The notes below the pieces were generated by a model. It was not told where the DNA came from. It worked only from the letters and a program-made list of their open reading frames with translations, and searched no databases. A DNA stretch of 50,979 nucleotides from a phage: sequence record PZ445502.1; one strand, 5' to 3'. Both the position numbers and the translations under genes were made by a program. Positions 22,293 to 26,482 of the stretch are shown here, in pieces. Each line of letters begins with the position of its first letter. Within the stretch, counting starts at the first letter, position 1.

Positions 22293-22949
<657 letters not shown>

Positions 22950-22950
22950 T

Positions 22951-22977
22951 AAACGGGGCGCTTGCGCCCCTTTTGTC
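22951..22977 (+). terminator. terminator-like hairpin
   Basis: GGGGCGCTTGCGCCCC followed by TTTTGT. Confidence 0.45.
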
Positions 22978-22992
22978 ATAGGAGAAAACAAA

Positions 22993-23445
22993 ATGCACGT
23001 TATTACAGGTGAGATTCGAAAAGAGCCAAAAGTAAAGCAAATGCCTAACGGCAGCACGCTATATGTTATTGAGCTTTCCGAGCGATACAAAGACCGAGAA
23101 GGAAATTGGCAGTATACAAACTATGTGTTTTTCTTTAACGCGAAAACAGACGGCCTGAATGGTTGGTATGCCGAGGCGTTCCAGGTAGGCAAGGTTGTTT
23201 CTGTTTCCTGCGATACCTTGCGAGTTGAAACGCGAGAATACAACGGAAAGATTTACAGCACCGTGCAGCCTGGCGGATTTGCAAACTTGCTATTTAGCCA
23301 GAGAGGTGAAAGCCAGCAACAATATCAGCAGCGAACGCAAGGAGGCTGGGGGCAACCACAACAGCAACAGCAACAAAATACTCAACAGCAGCCGCAGCAA
23401 AGCAATCAGCCTCCGATTGACTTTGACGATGATATACCATTCTGA
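22993..23445 (+). CDS. ssb: single-stranded DNA-binding protein
   Basis: 150 aa from ATG 22993 with GGAG upstream; Gln-rich linker; C-terminal tail DFDDDIPF as in E. coli SSB. Confidence 0.85.
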   Translation: MHVITGEIRKEPKVKQMPNGSTLYVIELSERYKDREGNWQYTNYVFFFNAKTDGLNGWYAEAFQVGKVVSVSCDTLRVETREYNGKIYSTVQPGGFANLLFSQRGESQQQYQQRTQGGWGQPQQQQQQNTQQQPQQSNQPPIDFDDDIPF

Positions 23446-23449
23446 TAAC

Positions 23450-23480
23450 AAAATGCCCCGCATATGCGGGGCATTTTTTA
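23450..23480. terminator. bidirectional rho-independent terminator
   Basis: AAAA-TGCCCCGCATATGCGGGGCA-TTTTTT between convergent ssb and fibre genes. Confidence 0.65.
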
Positions 23481-24215
23481 GTCTAACGTGGTTGGTTTGT
23501 TTACCAGTGCCGCTACAACCGCTTTTAGCTCGTCAATTTCTTTTCTCATCTCATCGTTTTCCGCTTTCAGTTTCTTAACGTGGTGAATCAGTGGAACAGT
23601 TAGGCGGTCATACATAACGCCTTCCGCCACCATGCCATTACTTGAAGCAATGGCAGGATCTTCTCCTTCTTGCAGCGGTCGCCAGTGAACGTACTCCGGA
23701 GCAATTTCTCCAACCTCTTCCGCGATTAGCCCGTACCATCCCCAATCTTTACGGTCGCTTTCACAAGTTGACCGATACCACACAGGACGCATTTCAAGCA
23801 TCAGATCCGCATATTCATCAATAACCGATTCTACGCTGCGCTTATAACGAGAAGAGGAAGTTGAGCGTAAAACTTGCGACACTCCAGCATTTGGATCAAG
23901 CCATAAGTTTGCTGATTGAGCGGTTGTGTTAATATTAAATAAATAAAATGCATCGTTACCAGTTAGGGGGTAAAAACTCCCACTATACCTTCCGCTACCC
24001 AACTCGGATGATAGATCAGTTTGTTTTAGATACGGTTTCAACTTATTGTCAACATCAGCAGTTGATGCTTTTCCTGCAACATCCTGTTTTAGTGTCGAAA
24101 CATCACTTTTCAGCTTCGTTATATCACCAGGAATAGTAGCAACATCCTGTTTTATCGTAGAAACATCATTTTTCAGCTTCGTTATATCACTAGGTATAAC
24201 AGTGACTGTAGCCAT
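23478..24215 (-). CDS. short tail fibre with C-terminal intramolecular chaperone (peptidase S74-like) domain
   Basis: 245 aa; two tandem 21-aa repeats at the N-terminus from a ~63-bp DNA repeat; C-terminal region resembling the self-cleaving fibre chaperone domain. Confidence 0.55.
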   Translation of the reverse strand: MATVTVIPSDITKLKNDVSTIKQDVATIPGDITKLKSDVSTLKQDVAGKASTADVDNKLKPYLKQTDLSSELGSGRYSGSFYPLTGNDAFYLFNINTTAQSANLWLDPNAGVSQVLRSTSSSRYKRSVESVIDEYADLMLEMRPVWYRSTCESDRKDWGWYGLIAEEVGEIAPEYVHWRPLQEGEDPAIASSNGMVAEGVMYDRLTVPLIHHVKKLKAENDEMRKEIDELKAVVAALVNKPTTLD

Positions 24216-24227
24216 TTTCCTAACTCC

Positions 24228-24506
24228 TTAAGCCCATTCTCTAATCGGCTGATCTAACTCAACCACGTAGCCGTTAAAAATTACGGCATCAAACTTATCA
24301 TCAATGATTCGCACATTGACGAAATAGCCGTCGTTCTTTCGCGCAATCTCATCGCCATCGTCAGATCGTGCAATTACTGTGTAAGTATTGCCGATTACAT
24401 CGAGCAGGATTGCATCCTGAATGGATTCGTTTTCGTTCCATTCAATTTCTTCCAGAAAGGCGGAAAAATCCGCCTTGTCTAAAAATTTCAGTGTTAAATC
24501 ACGCAT
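24228..24506 (-). CDS. hypothetical protein (possible fibre assembly factor)
   Basis: 92 aa from ATG 24506, TAATG overlap with the stop of the upstream fibre gene. Confidence 0.4.
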   Translation of the reverse strand: MRDLTLKFLDKADFSAFLEEIEWNENESIQDAILLDVIGNTYTVIARSDDGDEIARKNDGYFVNVRIIDDKFDAVIFNGYVVELDQPIREWA

Positions 24507-26482
24507 TATACAATTTCCCCCAATTGATGATCTGTTAGTGCCTTGTGCCATATACGGAAGTTTCTAACGTGCCCGAAAAGATGGCGTTCGCCCGTAGTTG
24601 TTTGTCCGCCAATCCTTATAGTAGCCGTTGATTCTATGTATCTCCATTCCGTTTTTGTTTCGCTTGATATTCTGGCATTACTTACACAGCAATTATTGTA
24701 ATCACTCTTTACTCTCATTCCCATGATCATCTTTTTTAGTTTTGCATTCTCGTAAACCCTTCTGTTTGATCCACCTATATCGCAATAAGGGAATCCATCA
24801 TTATCGCCCTCGGCAGATCCGAAAGCAAGAATAATTGCCGCACCAGATTGATGACCTACAGTATCAAAAACACGAGGCGCAGCATTTGGCGTTATACTCC
24901 AGTTTTTATTAGCTTCCACAAGAACTGTAAACGGCAAATTGTAAAGGTTGTTTTTTATTGGCACTGAAACCATATCGCTTGCCCTTGTTACTGGATTTTC
25001 TTCTGTAATTATGAAAGAAGAGGCACAAGATCCTCCCTCAACTTGTGGAGTTGCAATATAAATGTAATCATCCGCGCCAGTGCCCACTCCTTTTGCCGGG
25101 GCATACTGAACCATTCCACCTATCATATTTTCTGTATCAAGTGCCTTAATTGTCGCCTCAAAAAAGATCCATTTGCTTGCTTCATCTTTAACAGCCCTTG
25201 CAGTAATACGATTTGCAGCGACGCCAGTTTTTTCAATTGATAAATCTGTCAGATTTACGTAAGCATCACCCAAAAATGCATAAGCAGATCCATCGTAGTT
25301 TTCAAATCGTAATCGGCATCTTAAATTTGGAGTCCCACTTTGCGCCCTGCATGATATGGTTACATACTTTTCATTTCCTGTTACATCAAAACCTCTACTG
25401 CCGGAAACGGTTACTATGTTAATCGCTGAAGTTTGCCCTACCATTTCTGGTTTTAATGTAAATTTTGCGTACTGGAATCCGAAATTATCCACACCTGATC
25501 TAGCTAAGATCATATTTGATGACTTGTTCCATTTTGAAGGATTGACGCTATTTATAAGAAGGTTTGTTCTTTGCCCCTCAATGAGCAGACCATCCTTTTC
25601 AAATCTAGGTTCATCAATAGCAGCATTAGTAAGCACCCCAGACTTATTAATGTAAGTAGCGGTTGATGCGCGTTTAAACTTAACAATCTTGTCACCTGGC
25701 ATCGTGATCTCATCGTCACCTATAACAATCTTTTTATATGACGGAGAGAATCCGGTGATCATATCCAGGGAATCATTAAACGGTATCCACACGTCCGGCA
25801 ACGGTTGCAATAAATCTTTGTAAGGTTCTGCGGCCTGCTTTGCGTATTCCTCCGCTTGATCTCGCGCACTTTCAGCTCCTGCCTTTGCAGTGTTCGCAGC
25901 GTCACGCGCGGATTCAGCGCCTTTTCTTGCAGTTTCAGCGCCAGTCTTTGCAGTGTTTGCAGCGTCGCGCGCGGATTCAGCGGCAGCCTTTGCAGTGTCA
26001 GCACCTTTCTTGCTATTCTCTGCATTTGTTGCGCTTGTCTTTGCGTTATTCTCGCTAGTTTTAGCTGCCTTCTGGCTTGCTGCGGCTGCGTCAGCATTTG
26101 TCTTTACGTCTTCCTGGATCTTCTGTAGCTTATCCCAATCAAAATCCTTGATGATCTCAATAAATCCAGCAAACTCCGATTCCTTCCCCTGGTAATAACG
26201 CAACGTTTCCGCTACGTCTTGCGCAAGACCGTCAACCGTTAACGAGTCATGAAGCAAGATCAGGTAATTTGTCTTCTGTACTACCGCGCCGCCAGTAGTA
26301 ATTGCGCGAATGCTTGTATCGCTAATCACTTCTGTAATCACAGCAGCTTGCAAAGGTTGAGAAAGAAAGAAAATAGTTGCACCTGGGCGAATCAAGGTTA
26401 ATTGCTCACGCCATTTTGTACCGTAACCAGTTACATATCCTTGCGCGTCCATAGACGCTTGGCCTTGTCTGTAAATCGCCAT
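24506..26482 (-). CDS. long tail fibre protein with Ala-rich repeat region
   Basis: 658 aa from ATG 26482 with AGGAGG SD (track begins at 26506); N-terminal region with repeated AKxxAExARDAANTAK units; beta-rich C-terminal part. Confidence 0.55.
   Translation of the reverse strand: MAIYRQGQASMDAQGYVTGYGTKWREQLTLIRPGATIFFLSQPLQAAVITEVISDTSIRAITTGGAVVQKTNYLILLHDSLTVDGLAQDVAETLRYYQGKESEFAGFIEIIKDFDWDKLQKIQEDVKTNADAAAASQKAAKTSENNAKTSATNAENSKKGADTAKAAAESARDAANTAKTGAETARKGAESARDAANTAKAGAESARDQAEEYAKQAAEPYKDLLQPLPDVWIPFNDSLDMITGFSPSYKKIVIGDDEITMPGDKIVKFKRASTATYINKSGVLTNAAIDEPRFEKDGLLIEGQRTNLLINSVNPSKWNKSSNMILARSGVDNFGFQYAKFTLKPEMVGQTSAINIVTVSGSRGFDVTGNEKYVTISCRAQSGTPNLRCRLRFENYDGSAYAFLGDAYVNLTDLSIEKTGVAANRITARAVKDEASKWIFFEATIKALDTENMIGGMVQYAPAKGVGTGADDYIYIATPQVEGGSCASSFIITEENPVTRASDMVSVPIKNNLYNLPFTVLVEANKNWSITPNAAPRVFDTVGHQSGAAIILAFGSAEGDNDGFPYCDIGGSNRRVYENAKLKKMIMGMRVKSDYNNCCVSNARISSETKTEWRYIESTATIRIGGQTTTGERHLFGHVRNFRIWHKALTDHQLGEIV

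What the first reader, a model, noticed from the sequence alone, without database searches (positions are those of the whole stretch)
23478..24215. Short tail fibre with a self-cleaving chaperone-like C-terminus and a tandem 63-bp repeat
The C-terminal ~130 aa (SSRYKRSVESVIDEYADLMLEMRPVWYRST...GLIAEEVGEIAPEYVH...VMYDRLTVPLIHHVKKLKAENDEMRKEIDELK) resemble the intramolecular chaperone (peptidase S74) domain of phage fibres and endosialidases. The N-terminus is two near-identical 21-aa units (IPSDITKLKNDVSTIKQDVAT), visible as a DNA tandem repeat around 24085-24200 on the plus strand. Repeat number could vary by slippage and alter fibre length.
Basis: partly seen in the sequence, partly recalled or inferred. 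Interest (0 to 1): 0.45.

Follow-up and report, generated by a model that had tools for sequence, protein, structure and literature searches.

The report
Small self-cleaving accessory tail-fibre protein
This is a real but ordinary phage gene: a 245-residue side-fibre accessory protein with a coiled-coil stalk of variable length and a self-removing folding domain. Its one unexpected feature is that about a third of sequenced relatives carry it broken.

Summary
ORF 23478-24215 (-) encodes 245 aa. Two 63-bp units sit at 24197-24072 (53/63 nt, 17/21 aa identical). The C-terminal ~126 aa form a peptidase S74 intramolecular-chaperone domain, supported by Pfam, a profile hit to PDB, and an AF2 model matching MyRF ICA and endosialidase chaperones. 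Ser120/Lys125 are invariant and T119|S120 matches the phage T5 pb1 cleavage site.

The window is a Warwickvirus (T1-like coliphage). Among 34 relatives the gene has three length alleles, 224, 231 and 245 aa, differing by whole heptads.

It is the third gene of a mobile cassette: lateral tail fibre, then a 92-aa protein, then this gene. The cassette occurs in T1-like, T5-like, Seurat/Nonag, Dhillon-like phages and E. coli prophages. Third-gene products share only a ~15-aa N-terminus (M-x-T-x-T-x-IPxDITxLK); most also share S74. One positional orthologue was found in virion preparations by mass spectrometry.

Best reading: a minimal LtfB-like accessory fibre subunit, not a trans-acting chaperone.

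At least 12 of 34 isolates carry independent knockouts, including a recurrent C5->C6 frameshift. The main fibre gene appears intact in all 34, and intact alleles show dN/dS of 0.14-0.29.

A known kind of protein; modest interest.

The parts
23478..24215 (-). Gene 3: 245-aa accessory fibre protein (27.2 kDa precursor)
   Evidence: ORF list and sequence. 34 Warwickvirus orthologues at 94-98% nt identity. dN/dS 0.14-0.29 among intact alleles.
24224..24229 (-). Shine-Dalgarno AAGGAG, 8 nt upstream of the ATG, overlapping the stop codon of the 92-aa gene
   Evidence: Read directly from the sequence.
24171..24215 (-). N-terminal ~15-aa motif MATVTVIPSDITKLK, the proposed docking peptide
   Evidence: Residues M1 T3 T5 I7 D10 L14 K15 are invariant among 17 homologues. 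The same motif heads third-gene products with unrelated central parts in T5-like, Seuratvirus, Nonagvirus, Dhillonvirus phages and a prophage.
24072..24197 (-). Two tandem 63-bp units (24197-24135 and 24134-24072), each encoding three heptads
   Evidence: TRF 24076-24198. 53/63 nt and 17/21 aa identical. Copy number is polymorphic in relatives.
24060..24185 (-). Heptad-repeat (coiled-coil) stalk, aa 11-52, with I/V at position a and L/I at position d. An internal Pro29-Gly30 was created by the duplication.
   Evidence: Heptad register printed. AF2 helix 12-47. Weak matches to Lpp, fibritin and P22 gp26 coiled coils.
23859..24059 (-). Short distal 'stub', aa 53-119, including the conserved pre-cleavage segment TTAxxANLxLDP....VLRST
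   Evidence: Alignments A1 and A2. Low monomer pLDDT, as expected for an intertwined trimer.
23966..23970 (-). C5 homopolymer (gene nt 246-250), a recurrent frameshift site in relatives
   Evidence: C6 in orkinos, JLBYU19 and AV105, each on a different haplotype.
23841..23858 (-). Predicted autocleavage site T119|S120 and catalytic pair S120...K125 (SSSRYK)
   Evidence: S120 and K125 are invariant in 62 sequences. They align to the S-D-R-R-I-K motif of S16 gp37 and to the MyRF motif. T5 pb1 cleaves Thr1263|Ser1264 using Lys1269 (PMC4690869).
23481..23858 (-). Peptidase S74 intramolecular chaperone domain, aa 120-245 (14.5 kDa, predicted to be released)
   Evidence: Pfam PF13884, PDB profile hits, AF2 pLDDT above 90, Foldseek 7dc3/3gw6/3gud.
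23450..23477 (.). Palindromic hairpin with flanking A and T runs between the convergent gene 3 and ssb, read here as a probable bidirectional intrinsic terminator
   Evidence: -22.1 kcal/mol, z -5.8; sequence. The terminator scan did not list it, probably because the A/T runs extend its stem.
24228..24506 (-). 92-aa cassette partner (phrog_1361, function unknown)
   Evidence: 179 phage records, always just downstream of a tail-fibre gene. 31-74% identical in other cassette copies.
24506..26482 (-). Lateral tail fibre gene (658 aa from MAIYRQ...). No S74 domain.
   Evidence: PHROG tail and tail-fibre families. The C-terminal ~475-565 aa are 43-80% identical in the other cassette copies. A single full-length CDS with one full-coverage tblastn piece in all 34 Warwickvirus records.

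Best explanation
Gene 3 encodes a minimal accessory subunit of the lateral tail fibre, working like LtfB of the T5-like phage DT57C.

Proposed sequence of events:
1. Three chains are brought into register by the C-terminal S74 intramolecular chaperone (aa 120-245).
2. This nucleates folding of the short distal stub (aa 53-119) and zips up the N-terminal trimeric coiled coil (aa 11-52).
3. Once the trimer is correctly folded, Ser120, activated by Lys125, cuts the T119|S120 bond.
4. The 14.5-kDa chaperone leaves, and a 12.8-kDa x3 mini-fibre remains.
5. Its conserved first ~15 residues dock it onto the lateral fibre encoded two genes upstream, possibly with help from the 92-aa protein.

The stalk length is set by the number of heptads. 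It differs between isolates by 1 or 3 heptads, roughly 1-3 nm, through unequal recombination or slippage in the 63-bp repeat.

The subunit is dispensable for plaque formation on laboratory E. coli and is frequently lost there.

Shown here: the domain architecture, the catalytic residues, the repeat polymorphism, the cassette synteny, purifying selection and the recurrent knockouts.

Inferred: trimerisation, cleavage, docking to the fibre, and the reason for loss.
For: S74 domain. The cleavage chemistry is transposed from T5 pb1.

Cassette of fibre, 92-aa protein and gene 3 is conserved in:
- Warwickvirus and Hanrivervirus
- Seuratvirus
- Nonagvirus
- Tequintavirus
- Dhillonvirus
- an E. coli prophage
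- metagenomic phage contigs
All three partners are homologous across these copies.

Third-gene products keep the N-terminal motif while the middle part is swapped. Here it is a 60-aa stub. In HMD-P4 it is about 150 aa. In Bas32 and SIA3lw it is about 430 aa and homologous to tail fibres of phiEco32-like podoviruses. KarlBarth has a payload with no S74.

SIA3lw ORF44 is the positional orthologue; its first 17 aa are 76% identical to this protein. It was identified in phage particle preparations with 20 peptides and 46% coverage (PMC12752171; homology).

dN/dS is 0.14-0.29.

Heptad-number alleles.
Against: - No direct evidence that this particular 245-aa protein is in virions. Proteomics of the Warwickvirus swan01 detected only five major proteins, none of them this one, which is uninformative.
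- The SIA3lw preparation also contained non-structural proteins.
- The mature part has no recognisable receptor-binding domain.
- The monomer AF2 model is poor for aa 54-120.
- Docking to the fibre is inferred from synteny alone. No multimer prediction was possible.
- The N-terminus does not appear to match the LtfB/phiEco32 gp15 docking segment: the matches begin at residue 28-49, though this was never compared directly.
- If it were a useful fibre subunit, the roughly 35% knockout rate is surprising.
Confidence: 0.6

Rival explanations
1. Trans-acting assembly chaperone. The protein is not a structural component. It helps the upstream lateral tail fibre, which lacks its own S74 domain, to trimerise. 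This is the reading behind the GenBank label 'putative lateral tail fiber chaperone'.
For: BASEL records annotate it this way (PeterMerian, KarlJaspers, KurtStettler). The upstream fibre has no S74 hit. The gene is tightly linked to the fibre gene.
Against: - S74 domains characterised so far act in cis, on the chain they are cut from.
- Phage 21 has the fibre plus the 92-aa gene but no third gene.
- The fibre gene is a single full-length CDS in all 34 Warwickvirus records, including at least 12 with a broken third gene. If the two were an obligate client-chaperone pair, both should be equally free to decay.
- The middle of the third gene is swapped for bona fide fibre domains in relatives.
- An orthologue was detected in particle preparations.
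- No match to known tail-fibre assembly families.
Confidence: 0.1
2. Decaying remnant. The ORF is the orphaned C-terminal end of an ancestral long S74-type fibre, left behind when a new fibre module was recombined in upstream. It is now drifting towards loss.
For: The whole protein aligns to positions 1147-1384 of a 1385-position PHROG profile (phrog_3299). Many longer S74 proteins share the last ~140 aa. At least 12 of 34 isolates carry inactivating lesions.
Against: - It has its own strong SD and ATG.
- The same Met-initiated N-terminal motif is conserved across six or more phage lineages and in 742 of 5,426 complete E. coli genomes.
- dN/dS is 0.14-0.29, with synonymous sites saturated between lineages.
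- Lesions sit at the tips of the tree. Nearest relatives carry different lesions or none. That points to recent loss rather than long-term decay.
Confidence: 0.1
3. Fibre-like protein attached elsewhere or acting alone. It is a real trimeric S74-processed mini-fibre, but it binds another virion site, such as the tail tube, collar or head as a whisker, or it acts outside the virion.
For: The S74 and coiled-coil architecture is equally compatible with this. Weak similarity to fibritin, Lpp and the P22 needle coiled coils. The conserved N-terminus shows only that something is bound, not what.
Against: The gene travels with the fibre C-terminal module and the 92-aa gene into phages whose other tail parts are unrelated: T1-like, T5-like, lambdoid prophage and Queuovirinae. 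The only partners common to all of these are the two cassette proteins.
Confidence: 0.15

Closest known systems
[quoted passage not shown]
   Same: A C-terminal ~130-aa S74 domain. The scissile bond is Thr-Ser, with Lys five residues after the Ser (T1263|S1264...K1269 in pb1; T119|S120...K125 here). Both belong to a lateral fibre of a siphovirus infecting E. coli.
   Different: pb1 is a single 1,396-aa chain that includes the tail-attachment end and a bullet-shaped receptor-binding domain. Here the S74 domain sits on a separate 245-aa protein whose mature part is about 119 aa with no recognisable binding head. Direct sequence similarity to pb1 was not detected.
LtfB of T5-like phages DT57C and DT571/2, the second subunit of a branched lateral fibre (PMC4728585; PMC10713586)
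   Same: A second fibre protein encoded just downstream of the main lateral fibre gene. It has a short conserved N-terminus thought to dock on the main fibre, a variable middle and a C-terminal pfam13884 domain. It is dispensable on rough hosts.
   Different: - LtfA itself also carries S74; the main fibre here does not.
- The docking peptide appears different. In one search homology of the Bas32 third gene to LtfB-type and phiEco32-like fibres starts only at residue 28-49; no direct comparison was made.
- A conserved 92-aa gene lies between the two fibre genes here.
- The window protein is far smaller than LtfB.
Endosialidase (K1F endoNF) C-terminal intramolecular chaperone domain, PDB 3GW6, and phage GA-1 appendage chaperone 3GUD
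   Same: Same fold family by Foldseek and the same Ser/Lys autoproteolysis motif.
   Different: The match is weak (E 0.03-0.1, TM about 0.2-0.4). Those chaperones fold large triple-beta-helix enzymes or appendages, not a coiled-coil stub.
MyRF ICA (intramolecular chaperone auto-processing) domain, PDB 7DC3
   Same: The best structural and profile match (Foldseek E 2e-5, TM 0.6 on the target; hmmsearch E 1e-3). It shares the core and the long C-terminal helix.
   Different: It is a eukaryotic transcription factor. The similarity reflects the shared S74 fold only.
Lambda side tail fibre gene stf, frameshifted in laboratory lambda PaPa (from my own knowledge: Hendrix and Duda 1992)
   Same: An accessory side-fibre gene that is non-essential on K-12 and was inactivated by a frameshift in laboratory stocks.
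   Different: In lambda it is the main side fibre that is lost. Here the main fibre is kept and only the small third gene is hit, repeatedly and independently.

Membership tests
Peptidase S74 / intramolecular chaperone auto-processing domain (Pfam PF13884) | Sequence match to the family profile at or above the curated threshold | tested here: met
   PF13884 matches residues 120-176, 22.3 bits against a cut-off of 22.0, E 1.6e-4. This is marginal. Most homologues carry precomputed PF13884. The profile hits the S74 proteins 7dc3 and 6f45.
Peptidase S74 / intramolecular chaperone auto-processing domain (Pfam PF13884) | Fold of solved intramolecular chaperones: a mixed alpha/beta core plus a long C-terminal helix | tested here: met
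   AF2 pLDDT above 90 for about residues 130-240. Foldseek matches 7dc3 at E 2e-5, probability 1.0, TM(target) 0.60-0.64, with 3gw6 and 3gud next.
Peptidase S74 / intramolecular chaperone auto-processing domain (Pfam PF13884) | Catalytic Ser at the domain boundary with Lys five residues downstream | tested here: met
   S120 and K125 are invariant in 62 aligned homologues. They align to S-D-R-R-I-K of S16 gp37. The spacing and Thr-Ser context are the same as T5 S1264/K1269.
Peptidase S74 / intramolecular chaperone auto-processing domain (Pfam PF13884) | Located at the C-terminus of a trimeric fibre or spike polypeptide | tested here: met
   The domain ends 5 residues before the stop. It is preceded by a heptad-repeat stalk and a conserved pre-cleavage segment. 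The trimeric state itself was not tested.
Peptidase S74 / intramolecular chaperone auto-processing domain (Pfam PF13884) | Autoproteolytic release of the domain after folding | not testable with these tools
   Requires expression of wild type against S120A or K125A. Predicted products are 12.8 and 14.5 kDa.
Second (branch) subunit of a lateral tail fibre, LtfB type | Encoded immediately downstream of the main lateral fibre gene and co-inherited with it | tested here: met
   Cassette synteny in seven or more genome types with homologous partners.
Second (branch) subunit of a lateral tail fibre, LtfB type | N-terminal docking segment homologous to LtfB / phiEco32 gp15 (first ~45 aa) | tested here: inconclusive
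   No DT57C-type hit for the window protein at E<=1e-5. For the Bas32 third gene, matches to LtfB-type (mar003J3) and phiEco32-like fibres begin at residue 28-49, so the first ~27-48 aa are not shared. No direct pairwise comparison with DT57C LtfB was made.
Second (branch) subunit of a lateral tail fibre, LtfB type | Present in the virion, attached through the main fibre | not testable with these tools
   The only evidence is indirect. The positional orthologue SIA3lw ORF44 was detected by MS in a particle preparation. swan01 proteomics was too shallow to tell.
Trans-acting tail fibre assembly chaperone (Tfa / gp38 / gp57-like) | Similarity to a known assembly-chaperone family | tested here: not met
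   No such family among the Pfam or PHROG hits. All PHROG hits are C-termini of tail fibres.
Trans-acting tail fibre assembly chaperone (Tfa / gp38 / gp57-like) | Obligate co-occurrence and co-maintenance with its client fibre | tested here: not met
   Phage 21 has the fibre and the 92-aa gene without it. The fibre gene appears intact in 34 of 34 records, while this gene is broken in at least 12 of 34.

The most novel reading that the evidence does not exclude
The repeated, independent inactivation is not neutral decay. Lesions include a C5->C6 frameshift on three haplotypes, the same TAC->TAA change on two, and five or more other lesions, all with the main fibre untouched. This could be selection for switching off a small branch subunit that tunes adsorption: having it is costly on rough or laboratory hosts and useful elsewhere. 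The homopolymer tract and the heptad-coding repeat would then act as hypermutable on/off and length switches, a contingency-locus-like bet-hedging device in a phage fibre.
Probability: 0.15. Interest if true: 0.6.

Novelty: new member of a known kind. Interest (0 to 1): 0.3.

Why it matters
Four practical consequences follow.

1. **Annotation.** The label 'lateral tail fiber chaperone', used in BASEL-derived records, is probably misleading. The protein is better described as an S74-processed accessory fibre subunit.

2. **A portable cassette.** The fibre, 92-aa and accessory-subunit genes travel together, and the accessory subunit carries a 15-aa N-terminal tag in front of interchangeable payloads. 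This cassette spans T1-like, T5-like, Queuovirinae, Dhillonvirus and lambdoid prophage genomes. If the tag really is the docking element, it suggests a simple rule for engineering or predicting lateral-fibre specificity.

3. **Isolate quality.** About a third of sequenced Warwickvirus isolates carry knockouts of this gene. Reference genomes and phage stocks used for host-range or therapy work may therefore lack a fibre component that wild phages have.

4. **A test system.** The three heptad-length alleles are a small natural experiment on how stalk length affects adsorption.

Tried and rejected
- **Direct phmmer against PDB** found only coiled-coil noise (Lpp, fibritin, P22 gp26, an LRR protein) and no S74 structure. 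A 62-sequence profile was needed.
- **The monomer AF2 model** gives no usable structure for aa 54-120, with pLDDT 42-57. The nature of the distal stub therefore remains unknown.
- **Literature.** No paper uses the phrase 'lateral tail fiber chaperone'. The BASEL paper says only that the lateral fibre locus is hypervariable and that its function has never been demonstrated directly. The J Virol FhuA paper on JLBYU Warwickviruses does not discuss this gene. swan01 virion proteomics detected only five proteins.
- **The terminator scan** missed the hairpin after the gene, probably because the A/T runs extend the stem. It was confirmed by folding instead.
- **A link between the two 63-bp repeats** (this gene and the fibre gene) was considered. 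They encode unrelated peptides, and TRF lists them as separate arrays with different consensus units.
- **Sequencing error as the source of the lesions** was considered. It is unlikely for the three nonsense substitutions and the 13-nt deletion, and closest relatives carry different lesions. It cannot be excluded for single-base homopolymer changes without the reads.
Full report
**1. Observation**

- AAGGAG lies 8 nt upstream of the ATG and overlaps the stop of the preceding gene.
- A palindromic hairpin with flanking A and T runs follows the stop at 23450-23477 (-22.1 kcal/mol, z -5.8). It sits between this gene and the convergent ssb gene.
- Tandem Repeats Finder reports 24076-24198, period 63, 2.0 copies, 90% matches, score 204.
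- In codon register the units are 24197-24135 (IPSDITKLKNDVSTIKQDVAT) and 24134-24072 (IPGDITKLKSDVSTLKQDVAG). They share 53/63 nt and 17/21 aa. The chance probability is about 8e-19, a binomial estimate assuming a 0.30 per-base match rate.
- The units are three heptads each. I/V sits at position a and L/I at position d throughout residues 11-52, a pattern I would expect of a trimeric coiled coil. AF2 makes residues 12-47 one helix.

**2. The C-terminal domain is S74**

On its own the Pfam hit is marginal: PF13884, residues 120-176, 22.3 bits against a cut-off of 22.0. Other evidence agrees with it.
- Most of the 93 database homologues carry PF13884.
- A 62-sequence profile hits the MyRF ICA domain (7dc3, E 1.1e-3) and the chaperone end of phage S16 gp37 (6f45, E 2.5e-3).
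- The AF2 model has pLDDT above 90 across about residues 130-240.
- Foldseek returns 7dc3 (E 2e-5, probability 1.0), then the endosialidase chaperone 3gw6 and the GA-1 chaperone 3gud.
- S120 and K125 are two of only five invariant columns in the 62-sequence alignment.
- In T5 pb1 the Thr1263-Ser1264 bond is cut, with Ser1264 activated by Lys1269 (PMC4690869). Here the equivalent residues are T119-S120 and K125.

Predicted products are 12.8 kDa (residues 1-119) and 14.5 kDa (residues 120-245). Cleavage itself is inferred.

**3. Where the window comes from, and repeat variation**

The gene matches 40 phage records, 34 of them distinct phages, at 94-98% nt identity. Every record inspected is classified as Warwickvirus (Drexlerviridae, Tempevirinae).

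By match length, the 34 fall into three classes:

| Class | Gene length | Protein | Records |
|---|---|---|---|
| Two units | about 738 nt | 245 aa | 12 |
| One unit plus one extra DVSTxxQ heptad | about 696 nt | 231 aa | 11 |
| One unit | about 675 nt | 224 aa | 11 |

- Alignments show clean in-frame 63-nt and 42-nt differences inside the repeat.
- The one-unit alleles come in two flavours: VIPSDITKLKN... in tunzivis and NIPGDITKLKS... in tonn. More than one event is therefore needed.
- More distant homologues have fewer or more heptads. Examples are 268-269 aa with a third unit and 5-7 heptads in HMD-P4, L009 and KurtStettler.
- In the two-unit allele, the duplication places an IPGD (Pro-Gly) inside the coiled coil. 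This may act as a hinge.
Slippage and unequal recombination cannot be told apart with these data.

**4. Genomic context: a portable three-gene cassette**

Upstream on the same strand lie a 658-aa lateral tail fibre gene (24506-26482) and a 92-aa gene (24228-24506, phrog_1361). The fibre has PHROG tail-fibre hits and no S74.

The same order, big fibre then ~92 aa then a protein with this N-terminus, recurs widely:
- Hanrivervirus KarlJaspers
- Seuratvirus KurtStettler
- Nonagvirus JenP1
- the T5-like phages HMD-P4, IrisVonRoten/Bas32 and SIA3lw
- Dhillonvirus KarlBarth
- an E. coli prophage next to an integrase
- two metagenomic phage contigs

The fibre's C-terminal ~475-565 aa are 43-80% identical to the window's. 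The 92-aa proteins are 31-74% identical.

The third-gene products share only the first ~15 residues, M-[AV]-T-[VK]-T-[VNI]-I-P-x-D-I-T-x-L-K, and usually the S74 end. The middle is exchangeable:
- a ~60-aa stub here
- a ~150-aa domain in HMD-P4, L009 and KurtStettler
- a ~430-aa module in Bas32 and SIA3lw, homologous from residue ~49 to tail fibres of phiEco32-like podoviruses and from residue ~28 to the fibre of mar003J3
- a payload with no S74 in KarlBarth

KurtStettler's fibre is 80% identical to the window's over the shared region, yet its third gene has a different middle. The payload therefore swaps independently of the fibre.

The 92-aa gene is found in 179 phage records. Phage 21 has the fibre and the 92-aa gene but no third gene. 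The prophage version of the third gene is in 742 of 5,426 complete E. coli genomes.

**5. What it most likely is**

The closest described system is the branched lateral fibre of DT57C. There LtfB carries a short conserved N-terminus, a variable body and a pfam13884 end, and it is thought to hang on LtfA (PMC4728585; PMC10713586).

One direct piece of evidence for a structural role comes from SIA3lw. ORF44 of its ORF42-43-44 cassette was identified by MS in a phage particle preparation with 20 peptides and 46% coverage (PMC12752171). I confirmed that ORF42 is 61% identical to the window's fibre and ORF43 is 50% identical to its 92-aa protein. The first 17 aa of ORF44 are 76% identical to the start of this protein. 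That preparation also contained some non-structural proteins, so the evidence is suggestive only.

I therefore read the window gene as a minimal LtfB-like accessory subunit, made of:
- a docking peptide
- a coiled-coil stalk of adjustable length
- a tiny distal stub
- a self-removing folding domain

Confidence is about 0.6. The architecture is firm. Docking and virion location are inferred.

**6. Rivals**

- **Trans-acting chaperone** (the BASEL label 'putative lateral tail fiber chaperone'). Arguments against:
  - S74 domains characterised so far act in cis.
  - Phage 21 lacks the gene.
  - The middle region is swappable and fibre-like.
  - A positional orthologue was detected in virion preparations.
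  - The fibre gene stays intact wherever this gene is broken.
- **Decaying remnant of a longer fibre.** The alignment to the end of a 1385-position PHROG profile and the knockouts suggest this. Arguments against:
  - The gene has its own SD and ATG.
  - The Met-initiated motif is conserved across lineages.
  - dN/dS is 0.14-0.29, with saturated dS between lineages.
- **Attachment elsewhere on the virion.** This cannot be excluded. However, the only partners common to all host genomes are the two cassette proteins.

**7. Unexpected: recurrent knockouts**

I read 17 Warwickvirus alleles directly, counting EC125 with EC195 on the strength of their identical coordinates and scores rather than from its sequence. 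Twelve are clearly broken:

| Lesion | Isolates |
|---|---|
| C5->C6 at gene nt 246-250 | orkinos, JLBYU19, AV105 |
| GGA->TGA, G159* | Phunderstruck |
| GAG->TAG, E167* | tuinn |
| TAC->TAA, Y175* | EC195/EC125, JLBYU07 |
| +CC at nt 292 | JLBYU10 |
| -1 at nt 437 | ityhuna |
| -13 nt inside the repeat | KMB46 |
| -1 near codon 43 | brachmannus |

SECphi27 has a -1 frameshift that replaces the last 14 aa.

- The C6 allele occurs on three haplotypes, and each has a nearest relative with C5. The identical TAA occurs on two haplotypes that are only 94.7% identical. Nearest neighbours carry different lesions: orkinos against tuinn, and AV105 against EC195.
- The lesions are therefore recent and largely independent. 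Counting recurrence on distinct haplotypes gives about ten or more events; recombination could lower that count.
- The other 17 records are annotated as a single full-length CDS.
- By contrast, the 2.7-fold longer fibre gene is a single full-length CDS with one full-coverage tblastn piece in all 34 records. This is read from annotation and tblastn, not by checking each sequence for stop codons. The 92-aa gene is a full-length CDS in every annotated record I inspected.
- If about ten events fell at random over the three genes, the chance that all hit this one is about (738/2987)^10, roughly 1e-6. This is my own arithmetic from the gene lengths.
- Meanwhile the fibre is much more diverse among these phages (61-99% aa identity) than this gene (90-99%).

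The simplest reading is that the subunit is dispensable, and perhaps disadvantageous, on the laboratory strains used for isolation. This would resemble the stf frameshift of laboratory lambda (my own knowledge). Two caveats apply. Single-base homopolymer changes could include assembly errors, and the selective explanation is untested.

A 2025 preprint reports that Warwickvirus has the highest density of homopolymer repeats (>=6 bases) among the BASEL genera and proposes such tracts as contingency loci. The C5/C6 site here would fit that idea, but nothing shown here demonstrates switching.

**8. Novelty and verdict**

The protein belongs to a well-known kind, an S74-processed phage fibre protein. 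Public records already label it 'chaperone of endosialidase', 'peptidase S74 domain-containing' or 'tail fiber domain-containing protein'.

The following appear undescribed in the literature I could search:
- the three heptad-length alleles
- the recognition of a shared 15-aa N-terminal tag on interchangeable third-gene payloads across many phage lineages
- the high rate of independent knockouts

These are useful details, not a new mechanism. Interest is 0.3.

Noticed in passing
window 25866-26002 (minus-strand lateral tail fibre gene): A second, unrelated 63-bp tandem repeat (2.2 copies, 82% matches). It encodes Ala-rich 21-aa units (...AESARDAANTAKxGAE...). Related records annotate a repeat_region there, and fibre gene lengths differ among isolates (1956-1995 nt), so this stalk may also vary in length.
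   Followed up: partly
[not shown]
   Followed up: partly
L019:4501-6033 (Escherichia phage KurtStettler, Bas22): The third-gene product is 510 aa. After the S74 core, the usual C-terminal helix is replaced by a Gly/Trp-rich stretch and then a Gln- and Cys-rich ~230-aa extension ending in ...PPTSCC. This could be a fusion or a frameshift product.
   Followed up: no
L027:2770-3649 (Escherichia phage KarlBarth, Dhillonvirus): The third gene starts with the same MVTKTNIPADITALK motif but has no S74 domain. It is annotated as two CDS overlapping by 8 nt (98 + 196 aa). This is either another broken copy or a genuinely different payload.
   Followed up: no
hits H139, H144, H151, H152, H162, H176: Records named 'Listeria phage LM 4-11-1/4-14-1' and 'Campylobacter phage C13, A116, A12a, A134' carry this coliphage fibre cassette. 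Some have T5-like or rV5-like genome sizes. These are probably mislabelled or contaminant records.
   Followed up: no
window 23359-23375 and ORF 22942-23445 (+): The convergent SSB gene ends in a Gln-rich tail (...QQQQQQNTQQQPQQ...) encoded partly by a CAACAG microsatellite (TRF 2.8 copies). SSB CDS lengths differ among the related records (453 against 504 nt).
   Followed up: no
L007:2264-2947: The prophage version of this small S74 protein is present in 742 of 5,426 complete E. coli genomes, up to three copies per genome, including laboratory B-lineage strains such as C41(DE3). Most matches start at nt 39-43, so the heptad region is again the variable part.
   Followed up: partly
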